Shown: positions 54,821 through 57,844 of the stretch, in pieces | Layout: each line of letters starts with the position of its first letter | How positions within the stretch are numbered: position 1 is the first letter of the stretch | From: a virus | Reading direction: 5' to 3' (one strand) | Virus record (IMG/VR): IMGVR_UViG_3300033475_000015 | Length of the DNA: 64,000 nucleotides | Translations under genes and position numbers: made by a program | Notes under the pieces: model-generated | The model's input: only the letters and a program-made list of their open reading frames with translations | Database searches by the model: none | Told to the model about the DNA's origin: nothing

Positions 54821-55330
54821 ATGACAAGATCCGACATGTTCGAAGACGCAGTGCAGCATGAGACAGAGATCCGCTGGCACGACGACCCCGCCCGGTACCC
54901 GTACCTGCGCCAGCAGATCATGGGGCACACCTCCCGGTCCCGGGTGATCGGAGCGGGTGACCGCTGGTCGCTGGGCAAGCGCATCGTGGGCTACGCCGTA
55001 CTGGGTCCCAAGTCCCCTCCGGGACGGTTCGATCGTCGAATATTCTGGTGCAAGATGGTCGATCGGGACGGCAGTCGGGAGGACCCACCCTACAACGAGG
55101 CGGTGGATCCCCGGCTGATCCGGGCGGGGGTGGTGTGCCCATGGCTGTTCGGCTACTCCGTGCCTCTGGAGGACTGCGCCAGTTGGCTGGCTGCTCGCCG
55201 CAAGGAGATGGGGCTGGCCGAGGGGGAGCGGGCCGCTGCCGCCCCACCGAAGCGGGTACCCCCCATGACCAGGCAATCTTCGGTTTCACCCGGCGTTGCT
55301 CGATTGACAAGCCAACGCGGGGCACGGTAG
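54821..55330 (+). CDS. DUF6009-like protein
   Basis: EIRWHDDPARYPYLRQ...VGYAVL...FDRRIFW; leaderless TAGACT. Confidence 0.6.
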   Translation: MTRSDMFEDAVQHETEIRWHDDPARYPYLRQQIMGHTSRSRVIGAGDRWSLGKRIVGYAVLGPKSPPGRFDRRIFWCKMVDRDGSREDPPYNEAVDPRLIRAGVVCPWLFGYSVPLEDCASWLAARRKEMGLAEGERAAAAPPKRVPPMTRQSSVSPGVARLTSQRGAR

Positions 55331-55333
55331 TCT
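55304..55333 (+). promoter_or_regulatory. Sigma-A-type promoter for the Y RNA cluster
   Basis: TTGACA-N18-TAGTCT, 7 nt before the first Y RNA stem. Confidence 0.7.
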
Positions 55334-55339
55334 GGTACA

Positions 55340-55414
55340 CAGATCGAGCCGAACGGCAGCGGGTTACCCTTTCGCTAAGAGACAACCCCGCCGCCAACCA
55401 ACTCGCCCGATCTG
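55340..55414 (+). ncRNA. Y RNA-like 1 (short)
   Basis: Stem CAGATCG/CGATCTG; GCCGAACG Ro-binding motif; 3' ACCAACTCGCCC. Confidence 0.7.
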
Positions 55415-55428
55415 CGCACAATCGTCCT

Positions 55429-55512
55429 GGCGCCCGAGCTGAACGACCGTGGGTTACCTTTCACTCTGGATGAAACAAGTCACCCCACAGTCACCCCACT
55501 TGCCCGGGTTCC
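55429..55512 (+). ncRNA. Y RNA-like 2 with anticodon-like hairpin (CTG, Gln)
   Basis: CGAGCTGAACG; TTTCA-CTCTGGA-TGAAA; 3' ACCCCACTTGCCC. Confidence 0.7.
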
Positions 55513-55539
55513 TGGACGCGGCACCACTTGCTGGGCCTC

Positions 55540-55742
55540 GGCCGAGCGAGCTGAACGACCGTCGGTTATCGCCTCTTAAGCGGGTGGTTGCGGGTTCAAG
55601 TCCCGCCGAAGGCAGTACGACCGTGAGCCGGTGAACGGACGTTACGACGATCCGACCCGGGCAACCTCACGGCTCCACCTCCCTCGTAGCTCAATTGGCA
55701 GAGCACCTAAACACCGGCAGTCACCAACTCGCTCGCTCGGCC
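55540..55742 (+). ncRNA. Y RNA-like 3 (YrlA-type) with permuted tRNA module and 66-nt insert
   Basis: 12-bp terminal stem; anticodon loop CTCTTAA, T arm GCGGG-TTCAAGT-CCCGC, then D arm GCTC-AATTGGCA-GAGC. Confidence 0.8.
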
Positions 55743-55761
55743 GGGACCCAGTTGGTGGACC

Positions 55762-55894
55762 GCGCGAGCTGAATGAGAGTCGGTTATCTCTTTAGAAAAG
55801 GGCCGGTCCGGGTTCGAACCCCGGCGTCTCCACGTGGGGACGTAGTGTAATTGGCAGCACGGTAAACACCGACGATCAACCACCTTGCCCGCGC
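55762..55894 (+). ncRNA. Y RNA-like 4 (YrlA-type) with permuted tRNA module
   Basis: CGAGCTGAATG; T arm CCGGG-TTCGAAC-CCCGG; acceptor CGTCTCC-ACGT-GGGGACG; D arm GTGT-AATTGGCA-GCAC. Confidence 0.82.
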
Positions 55895-55996
55895 ACCCCA
55901 GTCCGGCCCCGATCCGTTTGGCCCCCCCGGCGGATCGGGGCCGGGCCCATCCTCGCCCGATGACTGCGTCATCGAGCCGAATGCTAGGAGATCGAC

Positions 55997-57691
55997 ATGA
56001 GCAACGCTTTGTCTCGCCACGGCCAGACACACTCGACCCCCCAGACGTCCCCGATCCCGGGCCGCGAGCCCGACATGGTCCAGAACGCGGCGGGCGGCTA
56101 CGCCTTCGCCAAGGACCTGTTCGAGCGACTCCAGGACTTCCTGATCCTGGGCACCGAGGGCAACACCTACTACGCCGACGAGAAGTCCCGCACCCTGCAG
56201 AACGTGCAGGTGGTGCACGACGCGATCCGGGCCGACGGTCTGCGGGCTGTCAAGCTGGCCGTCGAGATCTCCACGGCCCGTCCGGCCCGTGCCGTCAAGA
56301 ACTTCCCGGCCCTGTACACGATCGCCGCTGCGCTGTGCTCGGACGACCTGGCCACCCGCCAGGCGGCGGCGGGCTCGACCCACCTGGTCGCCCGAACCAC
56401 CGACCATCAGGCCCACCTGTTCGGCTACGTCAAGTCGATGAAGGGCAAGCCCGGCGGGCGCAACGGCCGGTCCCCGTCTGTCGGCGGTCCCGTGTTCAAG
56501 CGTGCCTGGACCAACCTGTTCGTCCAGGACCGGGCCGACGCCGTGGCGTACCGGTACCTCAAGGCCCGGTCCCGCAAGACCGGTGACGGCGAGCCCTTCT
56601 CTCCGCGCGACCTGCTGCGCATCGCCAAGCCCGTCCCGAACAGCGAGGTCCAGAGCACCCTGTTCGGCCTGATCTCTGGCAAGGTCAGCCCCATGGAGGC
56701 GAGTGGTGCGCTGGCCTCGTGCAAGTCGTTCTATGAGGCTCAGCTGGCCGACACCCCGGCCAAGGCGGTCCGGGCGATCAACGCCTACCACGTCCCGTGG
56801 GAGTTCCTGCCCACCGAGGTCCTGAAGCACCCGGAGGTCTGGGAGGCCCTGGTCCCGCACCTGGGCATGACGGCCCTGATCCGCAACCTGTCGCGGATGA
56901 CCCAGATCGGAACCCTCGGCCCCTTCAAGCGGGCCAACCGCCGGGTGGCCCAGCGGCTGACCGACCAGGCCGAGCTGCACGCGGCCCGGATCCACCCGTT
57001 CGACCTGCTGCTGGCCCTGAAGGTCTACGAGTCCGGCGCGGCCCAGCCGAATCTTAAGGCACCGGTCCGCACCTGGGACCCGGTGCCCGAGATCGTCACC
57101 GCCTTGAACGAGGCCTACGTCAAGTCCTTTGCGGTCTGCGACAAGATCCCCGGCAACCTGCTGGTGGCCGTCGACAGCTCGGGCTCGATGCAGGGCACGA
57201 ACGTCCAGCACGGCGGGTCAAATCTGGGGTCGGCCTATCGCATGGCCCTGGCGTTCGGCCAGATCCTGATGCGCACCTGGGGCGGCCAGGTCCACATGGT
57301 CGACTTCGACCAGGAGCTGCGCCGCAGCCCGCTGCGGGCCGACATGACCCTGTCCGAGATCAACCGTCTGCACAACGGCCGGGGCTGGGGTACCGACGCC
57401 TCGGTCGTGATGCGCTGGGCCACCCAGCACCGCCACTTCGTCGACGGGTTCGTCCTGATCACGGACAACGAGTCGTGGGCCGGGGACCGCCACGCCAGCC
57501 AGGCCCTGACCGAGTACCGCCGTACGGTCAACCCCAACGCCCGCGTGATCTGGGCGGCCACAGTCCCGAATGGCTACAGCCTCGGCGACCCGACCGACCC
57601 CGGCATGCTGAACGTCCAGGGGTTCGACAGCAACCTGGCCACCCTGGTCTCCTCGTTCATCGGGCCCGCCGTGCGGGCGCCGATGGGGTAG
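55997..57691 (+). CDS. rsr: Ro60-related TROVE-domain RNA-binding protein with vWA domain
   Basis: QNAAGGYAF, FLILGTEGNTYY, MTALIRNLSRM, RIHPF, VAVDSSGSM, GTD, ITDNE, DPGMLNVQGFD. Confidence 0.93.
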   Translation: MSNALSRHGQTHSTPQTSPIPGREPDMVQNAAGGYAFAKDLFERLQDFLILGTEGNTYYADEKSRTLQNVQVVHDAIRADGLRAVKLAVEISTARPARAVKNFPALYTIAAALCSDDLATRQAAAGSTHLVARTTDHQAHLFGYVKSMKGKPGGRNGRSPSVGGPVFKRAWTNLFVQDRADAVAYRYLKARSRKTGDGEPFSPRDLLRIAKPVPNSEVQSTLFGLISGKVSPMEASGALASCKSFYEAQLADTPAKAVRAINAYHVPWEFLPTEVLKHPEVWEALVPHLGMTALIRNLSRMTQIGTLGPFKRANRRVAQRLTDQAELHAARIHPFDLLLALKVYESGAAQPNLKAPVRTWDPVPEIVTALNEAYVKSFAVCDKIPGNLLVAVDSSGSMQGTNVQHGGSNLGSAYRMALAFGQILMRTWGGQVHMVDFDQELRRSPLRADMTLSEINRLHNGRGWGTDASVVMRWATQHRHFVDGFVLITDNESWAGDRHASQALTEYRRTVNPNARVIWAATVPNGYSLGDPTDPGMLNVQGFDSNLATLVSSFIGPAVRAPMG

Positions 57692-57814
57692 CGCTCACCG
57701 CCCCGACTCTCGGCCCCTCCGGTTCCGCCTCCCGGAGGGGCCGAGGCGTACCCGGGGCGGGGGGTGGTGTGGGGCTGGCCGGGGGCAACATCGGCCTTGG
57801 GTTGACTCAGTCCC

Positions 57815-57844
57815 TTGACACACAGGCAACGGTCGCCGTAAGAT
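57815..57844 (+). promoter_or_regulatory. Sigma-A-type leaderless promoter of the helicase gene, overlapping TTGAC-N5-GGCAA
   Basis: TTGACA-N18-TAAGAT; ATG 6 nt later. Confidence 0.7.

What the first reader, a model, noticed from the sequence alone, without database searches (positions are those of the whole stretch)
55304..57691. Phage Ro60 operon with four tandem Y RNAs carrying a graded set of tRNA parts
Seen: one promoter, then four RNAs sharing 5' CGAGC(C/T)GAA(C/T)G and 3' ACC(A/C)(A/C)CT(C/T)GC(C/T)C strands, then the TROVE/vWA gene. Their distal modules differ: a plain hairpin (Y1), an isolated anticodon arm (Y2), and complete permuted tRNA modules (Y3, Y4). Known: bacterial Ro60 binds Y RNAs via a GNCGAA(N)G motif; YrlA RNAs mimic tRNA; Ro/Y loci occur in some phages and are often linked to RtcB tRNA repair. 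No RtcB is visible in this window. Inference: interchangeable RNA adaptors give one Ro ring several specificities, for example as decoys or tethers against tRNA-targeting defences. Four paralogs with anticodon loops goes beyond what I know of described loci.
Basis: partly seen in the sequence, partly recalled or inferred. Interest (0 to 1): 0.85.

Follow-up and report, generated by a model that had tools for sequence, protein, structure and literature searches.

The report
Phage Ro60 operon with four Y RNAs
An uncultured soil phage carries the gene for the ring-shaped RNA-binding protein Ro60 behind four small partner "Y RNA" genes, two of which imitate transfer RNA; the locus is real and well conserved, but it belongs to a kind of system that is already described.

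Summary
One conserved promoter (55304-55333) is followed by four RNAs that share a Ro60-type bulged helix (55340-55894), then a full-length Ro60 gene (55997-57691). Four related viral or metagenomic contigs (Ro60 53-57% identical) carry the same array, and its helices covary.

Y3 and Y4 have the published YrlA architecture: YUAY, a "V" hairpin, a T arm, a closed acceptor stem and a D arm. Y1 and Y2 are simple, YrlB-like RNAs.

Four copies is not exceptional. GenBank phages carry two to six unannotated tandem units, and one metagenomic locus carries about seven. No RtcB is present.

Three points go beyond the literature I could read:
- In one YrlA class the V loop is invariant, CUNUUAA (a tRNA-Lys/Asn anticodon loop), over covarying stems.
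- A 7-nt loop with U33 and R37 is strongly enriched in V hairpins generally.
- Every Ro60 leader holds a miniature copy of its own genome's Ro-binding helix next to the ribosome-binding site, which suggests autoregulation.

Expression, Ro60 binding and function are untested. The decoy idea remains speculation.

Verdict: new member of a known kind, moderate interest.

The parts
55304..55333 (+). Promoter, TTGACA-N18-TAGTCT. It overlaps the stop codon of the upstream DUF6009 gene.
   Evidence: One of only two matches to TTGACR-N17-19-TANNNT in the window. The same TTGAC(A/G)-N18-TANNNT lies at the same place in all 4 distinct relatives. The E. coli-type scan missed it because the -10 box is weak.
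55340..55414 (+). Y1: a simple Y RNA. It has a terminal stem, a bulged Ro-type helix (GAGC|C|GA paired with UC|GCCC), a GGGUUAC upper stem and a small distal hairpin.
   Evidence: Fold z-score -3.3. Sub-threshold match to the nematode Y-RNA homologue family RF01656 (30.7 bits, gathering 38). Helix table.
55432..55509 (+). Y2: a simple Y RNA whose distal hairpin (55459-55475) has a 5-bp stem and a 7-nt loop, CUCUGGA.
   Evidence: The hairpin dimensions are kept in L010 (loop CUGCGGA) and L012 (loop UAUCGGA), with a covarying closing pair. U33 is not conserved.
55540..55742 (+). Y3: YrlA-type Y RNA, class 1. V hairpin loop CUCUUAA at 55573-55579; T arm 55590-55606; acceptor 3' strand 55607-55613; a 66-nt insert at 55614-55679; acceptor 5' strand 55680-55686; D arm 55687-55704.
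   Evidence: Rfam YrlA RF02553, 29.6 bits, E 3e-4. Fold z-score -3.4. In the alignment of 5 orthologues, 18 of 37 pairs show compensatory changes.
55762..55894 (+). Y4: YrlA-type Y RNA, class 2. V hairpin 55788-55802; T arm 55808-55824; 7-bp acceptor stem 55825-55831 paired with 55836-55842, closed by the loop ACGU; D arm 55845-55860.
   Evidence: The 7-bp acceptor stem covaries across 5 orthologues. The T arm plus acceptor give a sub-threshold match to tmRNA_permuted (24.5 bits).
55903..55944 (+). GC-rich 14-bp hairpin with a C-rich loop and no U tract. Probably a leaky terminator or a stabilising hairpin between the Y RNAs and the Ro60 mRNA. Relatives have a tRNA plus a similar hairpin at this position.
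   Evidence: Sequence; relatives. The terminator scan reports none, because there is no T run.
55951..55983 (+). Leader 'mini-Y' helix: a Y-RNA 3'-strand (CUCGCCCGAU), a short hairpin, then a Y-RNA 5'-strand (CGAGCCGAAUG). It ends 2 nt before the AGGAG ribosome-binding site (55986-55990).
   Evidence: Fifth exact copy of the 5' motif. The predicted fold has the same bulged helix. In 5 genomes the leader box equals a Y RNA box of the same genome. The design also occurs in Streptomyces phage EGole and in a Streptosporangiaceae genome.
55997..57691 (+). Ro60 (TROVE ring plus vWA domain with a DxSxS MIDAS motif), 564 aa.
   Evidence: Pfam PF05731 and PF25045. PDB Ro60 and Rsr matches at E 1e-57 and 7e-56. 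371 phage records with a 'Ro-like' protein, all 36% identical or less. D393, S395 and S397 are invariant.
57711..57743 (+). GC-rich hairpin after the Ro60 stop codon, the probable end of the transcription unit. The next promoter is at 57815.
   Evidence: Sequence; promoter at 57815.

Best explanation
This is a self-contained phage transcription unit for a Ro60-Y RNA ribonucleoprotein. It is of the YrlA/YrlB kind known from actinobacteria and mycobacteriophages.

Proposed mechanism, with each step marked as shown or inferred:
1. A conserved SigA-type promoter makes one precursor (inferred; M. smegmatis is the precedent).
2. The precursor is cut into four Y RNAs (inferred).
3. Each Y RNA presents the same Ro60 docking site: a 4-bp box, a bulged pyrimidine and a GA/YY step. 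This has the geometry of the metazoan GGUC-C-GA/UU-GACU helix. The structure is shown by covariation; binding is inferred.
4. The distal ends differ. Y1 and Y2 carry simple hairpins. Y3 and Y4 carry a permuted tRNA-like domain. Y4, with a 7-bp acceptor stem closed by a tetraloop, is probably opened by RNase P and given a CCA end, as M. smegmatis YrlA is (inferred).
5. The RNAs act as alternative adaptors or gates that couple the Ro60 ring to host RNA enzymes. These would be a 3'-5' exoribonuclease such as PNPase, plus tRNA-binding proteins for the YrlA types, used to remodel or degrade structured RNA during infection (inferred from D. radiodurans, Salmonella and Thermus phage phiLo).
6. A leaky hairpin lets a fraction of transcripts continue into the Ro60 gene (inferred).
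7. The Ro60 leader carries a miniature copy of the docking helix beside the ribosome-binding site. Free Ro60 would therefore limit, or otherwise control, its own translation (inferred from genome-specific covariation).
For: Protein: Ro60 domains and full-length similarity to solved Ro60 and Rsr.

Motif clustering: the 5' motif occurs 5 times, only here, against 0.22 expected. The profile of 5' halves hits only the four RNAs.

Docking helix: it is present in 18 of 19 units from 5 genomes. The 4-bp box covaries (GAGC, GAGA, GAAU, GGAC, AGUC, CGGU, GGGC), while the bulged pyrimidine and the GA step stay fixed.

Conservation: four independent relatives, two of them complete 77-kb phage genomes, keep the order promoter, 3-4 Y RNAs, Ro60.

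YrlA features of Y3 and Y4: YUAY; T loop UUCRANY; D loop with A14, R15, G18, G19 and A21; a closed acceptor stem; a 15:48 pair. RNAalifold finds compensatory changes in 18 of 37 and 14 of 37 pairs.

Rfam scores: the accepted phage YrlAs of ET08 and Cashline score only 37 and 42 bits against a gathering score of 69. Y3's 29.6 bits is therefore in the family's normal range for actinophages.

Literature precedents:
- Thermus phage phiLo Ro60 binds two upstream Y-like RNAs and forms a complex with host PNPase (PMC12135203).

Leader helix.
Against: There is no expression or binding data. No RNA run could be examined, and the phage is uncultured.

No Rfam gathering threshold is met.

Y2, Y3 and Y4 have U where the published GNCGAAN0-1G motif has C.

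Neither the partner nuclease nor the host is known.

Transcription through the hairpin at 55903-55944 is assumed, not shown.

The leader helix could stabilise the mRNA or mark a processing site instead of repressing translation. My search found it in only about a quarter of the more distant Ro60 loci.
Confidence: 0.72

Rival explanations
1. Counter-defence decoy or sensor. The tRNA-like Y RNAs, held on Ro60, display anticodon-loop mimics, above all a tRNA-Lys/Asn loop. They would soak up, or report, host anticodon nucleases and tRNA-cleaving toxins.
For: Class-1 YrlA loops are CUCUUAA, CUCUUAA, CUGUUAA, CUUUUAA and CUUUUAA in five genomes. Only the wobble position varies, and all three stem pairs covary.

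Across 37 YrlA modules, 24 have a stem of 3 bp or more closing a 7-nt loop with U33 and R37. Shuffled controls give a mean of 1.5 and a maximum of 7 in 2000 trials.

Relatives co-transcribe genuine tRNAs (Asp-GUC twice, Arg-ACG) or a mini-tRNA at the end of the array.

From general knowledge: Lys, Asn, Asp and Arg tRNAs are classic targets of anticodon nucleases.
Against: No defence or nuclease partner is identified.

The stems are only 3-4 bp.

The loops of class 2 and of Y2 are not conserved.

The loop could instead be a relic of a tRNA-dimer origin, or a tertiary-contact element.

ARAGORN's acceptance of the de-permuted modules does not discriminate: 69% of controls with a shuffled V region also pass.

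The window itself has no tRNA in the operon.
Confidence: 0.15
2. Permuted pre-tRNA genes. Y3 and Y4 would be storage forms that mature into working tRNAs, by RNase P opening of the acceptor loop plus removal of the Ro-binding stem and ligation at position 26/27.
For: All four tRNA arms are present in permuted order. 9 of the 10 modules in the family have 7 pairs (Watson-Crick or G-U) or nearly so in the acceptor stem. M. smegmatis YrlA receives a CCA end in vivo.
Against: No bacterial pathway is known that would excise the terminal stem and join 26 to 27.

There is no RtcB or other ligase in the window or in the complete relatives.

The anticodon-like stems are 3-4 bp.

Y3's acceptor stem has only 5 of 7 pairs and carries a 66-nt insert.

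Discriminator bases are not conserved.
Confidence: 0.03
3. Non-functional repeats. The four units would be decaying duplicates of a tRNA or Y RNA, or generic intergenic hairpins, with no role of their own.
For: No expression data exist. Two of the four folds are not better than shuffled sequence (Y2 z -0.65, Y4 z -1.15).
Against: The same four-unit order is kept at 53-57% protein identity. There are many compensatory base changes, and the loops and motifs are invariant. A conserved promoter lies directly upstream.
Confidence: 0.03

Closest known systems
YrlA and YrlB of Mycobacterium smegmatis and Salmonella Typhimurium (Chen et al. 2014, PMC4201824; Wang et al. 2018, bioRxiv 10.1101/312249)
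   Same: The RNAs lie upstream of and on the same strand as the Ro60 gene. M. smegmatis makes them from one precursor. The shared elements are a 5' GNCGAA-type motif, YUAY, a V hairpin, a T arm, a closed acceptor stem and a D arm, with a 15:48 pair. A 7-bp acceptor stem as in M. smegmatis is present in Y4. As in M. smegmatis, there is no RtcR/RtcB linkage.
   Different: There are four RNAs (two simple and two YrlA-type of distinct classes) instead of two. Y2-Y4 have U for C in the motif. Y3 carries a 66-nt insert in the acceptor stem. The class-1 V loop is a fixed tRNA-Lys/Asn-like CUNUUAA, whereas the Salmonella structure paper states that YrlA lacks an anticodon loop. A mini-Y helix lies in the Ro60 leader.
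Actinophage Ro60 loci in GenBank: Mycobacterium phage ET08 (Bxz1 group), Gordonia phage Cashline, Microbacterium phage FuzzBuster, Mycobacterium prophage prophiGD43A-5, Streptomyces phage EGole
   Same: A phage-borne 'Ro-like RNA binding protein' is preceded by unannotated tandem Y-like units carrying GGUUAY and, in some units, T and D arms. The unit counts are ET08 3, Cashline 2, FuzzBuster 3, prophiGD43A-5 6, EGole 1. EGole also has the leader mini-Y helix.
   Different: Ro60 identity is only 30-36% and there is no nucleotide similarity. The variants of the docking motif differ. The pairing of two YrlA classes and the promoter type are specific to the window's own clade.
Thermus phage phiLo Ro60 with Yrl1 and Yrl2 (NAR 2025, PMC12135203)
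   Same: A phage Ro60 gene has Y-like RNAs immediately upstream. Binding was shown experimentally, and a RYPER-like complex forms with host PNPase. This is the best experimental model for how the present locus may work.
   Different: The protein is only distantly related (E 7e-5, partial). phiLo has two RNAs, and none is described as tRNA-like.
Metazoan Y RNAs and nematode stem-bulge RNAs (Rfam RF00019, RF01656)
   Same: A terminal helix with one bulged pyrimidine followed by GA paired to YY. An upper stem ends in GGGUUAY. Y1 scores 30.7 bits on RF01656.
   Different: The score is below the gathering threshold of 38, and RF00019 gives no match. The distal modules differ. Homology as opposed to convergence is not established.
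Two-piece (permuted) tmRNA and permuted tRNA genes
   Same: The T arm precedes the D arm. An acceptor stem is formed across a loop that RNase P could open. Y4 has G3-U70 and A73, like tmRNA and tRNA-Ala.
   Different: There is no mRNA-like reading frame and no pseudoknots. The Rfam tmRNA_permuted score is 24.5 bits against a gathering score of 47. G3-U70 is present in only 2 of 5 orthologues.

Membership tests
Ro60 / Rsr protein (TROVE plus vWA) | TROVE HEAT-repeat ring domain | tested here: met
   Pfam PF05731, 64 bits against a cut-off of 23. Pfam covers only residues 268-341. The protein aligns over its full length (residues 14-554) to Xenopus and human Ro60 and to D. radiodurans Rsr, at E 1e-57 to 7e-56.
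Ro60 / Rsr protein (TROVE plus vWA) | C-terminal vWA domain with a MIDAS DxSxS motif | tested here: met
   PF25045 vWA_Ro60, 118 bits, covering the full profile. D393, S395 and S397 are invariant among three homologues.
Y RNA (generic Ro60 partner) | Encoded next to Ro60 on the same strand | tested here: met
   All four lie within 660 nt upstream on the + strand.
Y RNA (generic Ro60 partner) | 5' and 3' ends pair into a stem that carries the conserved bulged Ro-binding helix (GNCGAAN0-1G in bacteria, GGUCCGA in animals) | tested here: met
   Y1 matches GNCGAANG exactly. Y2-Y4 read GCUGAAYG, with U for C. The geometry of a 4-bp box, a bulged pyrimidine and GA/YY is kept, with covariation, in 18 of 19 units.
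Y RNA (generic Ro60 partner) | Physical binding to Ro60 | not testable with these tools
   Requires RIP or EMSA. No RNA-seq holder was listed.
Y RNA (generic Ro60 partner) | Rfam Y_RNA or sbRNA model at the gathering score | tested here: not met
   RF00019 gives no match. RF01656 gives 30.7 bits (Y1) and 17 bits (Y2) against a gathering score of 38.
YrlA (RF02553; Chen et al. 2014) | T arm and D arm with the tRNA-invariant nucleotides, T arm 5' of D arm | tested here: met
   Y3 has T loop UUCAAGU and Y4 has UUCGAAC. Both have D loop AAUUGGCA, giving A14, A15, G18, G19 and A21.
YrlA (RF02553; Chen et al. 2014) | [quoted passage not shown] | tested here: met
   Y4 has a 7-bp stem with a 4-nt loop. 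Y3 has 5 of 7 pairs and a 66-nt structured insert. The stem covaries in orthologues.
YrlA (RF02553; Chen et al. 2014) | Conserved YUAY leading into a 'V' stem-loop 5' of the T arm | tested here: met
   GGUUAUC is followed by a hairpin in both Y3 and Y4 and in all 10 orthologous modules.
YrlA (RF02553; Chen et al. 2014) | Levitt-type 15:48 pair | tested here: met
   A15 pairs with U48 in Y3 and Y4. Relatives with a G15 D loop have C48.
YrlA (RF02553; Chen et al. 2014) | Rfam gathering score (69 bits) | tested here: not met
   Y3 scores 29.6 bits as a local match; Y4 is not reported. The published phage YrlA of ET08 scores 37.4 bits and Cashline 42.2 bits, so this cut-off excludes accepted actinophage members too.
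RtcB-linked RNA repair operon (rsr-yrlBA-rtcBA) | RtcB, RtcA or RtcR encoded with Ro60 | tested here: not met
   No PF01139 in two complete related phage genomes. None among the window's ORFs of 330 aa or more. RtcA and RtcR were not searched for separately.
tRNA gene (canonical or permuted) | Recognised as a tRNA by tRNA finders, with a 5-bp anticodon stem | tested here: not met
   ARAGORN and Rfam tRNA find nothing at threshold in 55300-56000. Modules de-permuted in silico pass ARAGORN, but so do 69% of controls with a shuffled V region. The stems are 3-4 bp.

The most novel reading that the evidence does not exclude
The 'V' hairpin of YrlA-type Y RNAs is a working anticodon stem-loop mimic. 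In this phage clade it copies tRNA-Lys/Asn (CUNUUAA). Once RNase P opens the acceptor loop, Ro60 would carry a complete five-armed tRNA look-alike. That look-alike would serve as bait, shield or sensor for host enzymes that cut or modify tRNA anticodon loops. Its dosage would be set by a Ro60-binding helix in the Ro60 mRNA leader. On this reading, phage Ro60-Y RNA particles are a counter-defence device aimed at tRNA-targeting immunity.
Probability: 0.15. Interest if true: 0.85.

Novelty: new member of a known kind. Interest (0 to 1): 0.5.

Why it matters
What bacterial and phage Ro60-Y RNA particles do is still largely unknown. This clade has five independent loci with abundant covariation, which makes it a clean comparative data set.

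It sharpens three testable points:
- Ro60 docking needs a geometry (a 4-bp box, a bulged pyrimidine and a GA step) and not a fixed sequence.
- Many YrlA RNAs keep an anticodon-loop-like hairpin. This fits the proposal that they arose from tRNA dimers, and it may indicate which tRNA-binding partner they recruit.
- Ro60 probably senses its own level through a copy of the docking helix placed at its ribosome-binding site.

None of this changes the classification of the locus. Culturable phages with the same features (FuzzBuster, EGole, ET08, prophiGD43A-5) make the ideas experimentally accessible.

Tried and rejected
- Rfam at gathering thresholds found only the two ordinary tRNAs at 1084 and 1568 and nothing in the locus.
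- ARAGORN found no tRNA in the locus.
- Megablast of the locus against 50,697 phage records gave no match.
- No whole genome is held for the window.
- Sequencing runs: one soil DNA holder with a 0.22 share of words, and no RNA holder listed. The RNA-only query listed none. Neither result bears on expression.
- The first genome-contig scan, using the alignment, found nothing. The second gave one useful cellular relative.
- ARAGORN called all 10 in-silico de-permuted modules tRNAs, but it also accepted 69% of controls with a shuffled V region. I rejected this as evidence for an anticodon arm.
- The loop length of the longest-stem hairpin in V regions shows no clear preference for 7 nt. The support for anticodon-like loops rests on the composite pattern test, which does not correct for relatedness among the sequences.
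- The E. coli-type promoter and terminator scan missed the operon promoter and reported no terminator.
- Two reviews (PMC10870794, PMC6047535) are not held. I cannot exclude that they already discuss an anticodon-like V arm, multi-copy arrays or a leader site.
- A search for Ro60 autoregulation found nothing relevant in the held library.
- I considered and rejected Y4 as a tmRNA. It has no coding or pseudoknot part, and the score is sub-threshold.
- I did not run the count of structure pairs, because it needs a long typed structure string.

Full report
WHAT IS THERE

The window is a phage genome. It has an SPP1-type portal, glycosyltransferases, and a replication module with PrimPol, an AAA_24 protein, a DinG-like helicase and a family A polymerase. 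No cellular genome is held for it. Its two closest relatives are complete 77-kb viral genomes with terminal repeats.

The ORF 55997-57691 is a full-length Ro60:
- It matches Pfam TROVE and vWA_Ro60.
- Residues 14-554 align to solved human and Xenopus Ro60 and to D. radiodurans Rsr, at E 1e-57 to 7e-56.
- The MIDAS DxSxS motif is conserved.
- It is at most 36% identical to the 371 'Ro-like' proteins of sequenced phages. The locus has no nucleotide match among those phages.

THE FOUR RNAs

The motif CGAGCYGAAYG occurs five times in 64 kb, all between 55345 and 55983 on the + strand, against 0.22 expected. The matching 3' strand closes four of them. A profile of the 5' halves finds nothing else in the window. 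The units are Y1 55340-55414, Y2 55432-55509, Y3 55540-55742 and Y4 55762-55894.

A promoter, TTGACA-N18-TAGTCT, lies at 55304-55333. That pattern has only one other match in the window, at 57815 just after Ro60. Together with the hairpin after the Ro60 stop codon, this points to one autonomous transcription unit.

RELATIVES AND COVARIATION

Four independent loci carry the same layout. They are L001/L009, L002/L012, L010 and L011, with Ro60 53-57% identical to the window's. Each has the same promoter type, one or two simple Y RNAs, two tRNA-like Y RNAs, and then Ro60.

I tabulated the docking helix in 19 units. In 18 of them a 4-bp box is followed by one bulged pyrimidine and by GA paired to YY. 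The box changes with full compensation (GAGC, GAGA, GAAU, GGAC, AGUC, CGGU, GGGC), while the bulge and the GA step stay fixed. This is the geometry of the animal GGUC-C-GA/UU-GACU helix. Y1 even scores 30.7 bits on the nematode Y-RNA-homologue model, below its cut-off of 38.

For the tRNA-like units, RNAalifold finds compensatory changes in 18 of 37 pairs (class 1) and 14 of 37 pairs (class 2).

COMPARISON WITH THE DESCRIBED FAMILY

Chen et al. 2014 define YrlA by these elements: the GNCGAAN0-1G motif, a conserved YUAY that begins a 'V' stem-loop, a T arm, a closed acceptor-like stem, a D arm, and a 15:48 pair. In M. smegmatis, YrlA and YrlB come from one precursor upstream of rsr. There, the 7-bp acceptor stem lets RNase P cut and CCA be added.

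Y3 and Y4 have every one of these elements. Y4 has an exact 7-bp acceptor stem closed by four nucleotides.

The low Rfam score of Y3 (29.6 bits against 69) is not evidence of novelty. The accepted phage YrlAs of ET08 and Cashline score 37 and 42 bits.

Copy number is not exceptional either. Unannotated tandem units number 3 in ET08, 2 in Cashline, 3 in FuzzBuster and 6 in prophiGD43A-5. In prophiGD43A-5 one unit is annotated as tRNA-Thr. A low-GC metagenomic locus has about 7. The literature describes two Y-like RNAs for Thermus phage phiLo and three candidates for a Listeria phage.

RtcB is absent from the window's large ORFs and from the complete relatives. This matches the situation in M. 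smegmatis and the mycobacteriophages.

WHAT GOES BEYOND THE PAPERS I COULD READ

1. Two YrlA classes per phage. Each phage of the clade has two YrlA classes. Class 1 includes the window's Y3. Its V loop is CUCUUAA, CUCUUAA, CUGUUAA, CUUUUAA or CUUUUAA. That is six invariant positions, as conserved as the T and D loops, with change only at the wobble position. All three closing pairs covary. This is the anticodon loop of tRNA-Lys/Asn. In class 2, which includes Y4, the loop varies.

2. V hairpins in general. Across 37 distinct YrlA modules, including ET08 and Cashline, 24 have a stem of 3 bp or more closing a 7-nt loop with U at position 2 and a purine at position 6, placed 3-8 nt before the T arm. 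Shuffled controls give a mean of 1.5 and a maximum of 7 in 2000 trials. The loop composition is Y32, U33, A37, A38.
   - The Salmonella structure paper states that YrlA lacks an anticodon loop, and it treats the stem leading to Ro60 as the anticodon stem.
   - The present data fit the tRNA-dimer origin model cited in that paper, with the hairpin as the first tRNA's anticodon arm.
   - Caveats: the sequences are related to one another, the stems are short, and two cruder tests did not discriminate.

3. A docking helix in the Ro60 leader. The fifth motif copy (55973-55983) belongs to a 33-nt element (55951-55983). In it, a Y-RNA 3' strand, a short hairpin and a Y-RNA 5' strand rebuild the docking helix, ending 2 nt before the AGGAG ribosome-binding site.
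   - In all five genomes the leader box equals a Y RNA box of the same genome: GAGC|C|GA, GAGC|C|GA, GGAC|U|GA, GAAU|U|GA and GAAU|U|GA.
   - The same design occurs in Streptomyces phage EGole and in a Streptosporangiaceae genome whose Ro60 is 50% identical.
   - The simplest reading is feedback control of Ro60 synthesis by free Ro60.
   - I found no description of this in the held literature, but two key reviews were not available.

MECHANISM AND RIVAL READINGS

The best-supported reading is a Ro60-Y RNA particle system. The four RNAs would be alternative adaptors or gates that link the Ro60 ring to host RNA enzymes. The models are the Ro60-Y RNA-PNPase machines of D. radiodurans and Salmonella and the phiLo complex. 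The structure, conservation and family assignment are shown here. Transcription as one precursor, processing, binding, the partner proteins and the autoregulation are all inferred.

The decoy or sensor idea gains some support from the fixed Lys/Asn-type loop. It also gains from the genuine tRNAs (Asp-GUC twice, Arg-ACG) or the mini-tRNA that relatives place at the end of the array. It has no direct evidence, and I give it about 0.15.

Maturation into functional tRNAs, and non-functional repeats, are both unlikely (about 0.03 each).

VERDICT

The locus is a divergent new member of the known YrlA/YrlB-Ro60 kind. The points that deserve follow-up are general to the family and not peculiar to this window. 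Interest 0.5.

Noticed in passing
window 55951-55983; L012 1441-1472; L010 1466-1494; L009 1462-1488; L011 1094-1120; L089 about 1474-1500; L092 about 1415-1450: A miniature Ro-binding helix lies in the Ro60 mRNA leader, next to the ribosome-binding site. In each genome it uses that genome's own Y RNA box. This suggests Ro60 autoregulation. It also occurs in Streptomyces phage EGole and in a Streptosporangiaceae chromosome.
   Followed up: partly
L012 1281-1355; L010 1267-1339; L011 798-870; L009 1367-1427; L007 1-45: Relatives place a tRNA between the last Y RNA and Ro60: Asp-GUC (L012, with C at position 33), Asp-GUC (L010) and Arg-ACG (L011). In L009 the element is a tRNA-like RNA with no anticodon arm and an encoded CCA (Rfam tRNA 46 bits; ARAGORN finds nothing). 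L007 starts inside a tRNA 3' half. The window has only a GC hairpin at this position.
   Followed up: partly
L010 about 1345-1470 and L011 about 875-1000: A conserved, GC-rich and apparently structured spacer of about 130 nt lies between the tRNA and Ro60. It is shared by these two loci and has no Rfam match.
   Followed up: no
L011 about 1010-1060 and L012 about 1370-1410: A possible fifth, very small Y-like RNA lies after the tRNA. It has a 5' GCCGAAAG-type motif and a 3' strand ending ACCACUUGC(C/U)CGGGG.
   Followed up: no
L091 (Mycobacterium prophage prophiGD43A-5) 560-1440: Six tandem Y-like units lie upstream of the Ro-like gene, four of them with T and D arms. They use a different docking motif (GUGAACAGGA). 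One unit is annotated in GenBank as tRNA-Thr (tgt), because its V hairpin reads as an anticodon arm.
   Followed up: partly
L027 430-1400: A low-GC metagenomic contig carries about seven tandem Y units upstream of Ro60. Each starts with GGGUCGAANG and has GGUUAUC, and several have T arms.
   Followed up: no
window 55825-55842; L011 about 538-560: The class-2 acceptor stems of the window's Y4 and of L011_Y3 read GGGGA(C/G)G paired with C(G/C)UCUCC, followed by A. This gives G3-U70 plus A73, the alanine identity set. The other three orthologues have C3-G70, so the feature is not conserved.
   Followed up: partly
window 55614-55679: Y3 alone carries a 66-nt structured insert inside the acceptor stem-loop, where its orthologues have loops of 4-6 nt. 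Long acceptor stems are reported for some cyanobacterial YrlAs.
   Followed up: no
window 55304-55333 and 57815-57844; relatives' promoters: The promoters share an extended motif, TTGACA-N4-5-GCAAC (the window's own operon promoter reads CCAAC), before the -10 box. They are the only two matches to the actinobacterial promoter pattern in the 64-kb window, and they bracket the Ro60 unit.
   Followed up: partly
window 55903-55944: A 14-bp GC hairpin has a loop containing seven consecutive C residues. It gives a weak Rfam 6C match (21 bits, E 2.8). Similar C-rich-loop hairpins follow the tRNA in relatives. Whether it acts as a terminator or as a regulator is unknown.
   Followed up: no
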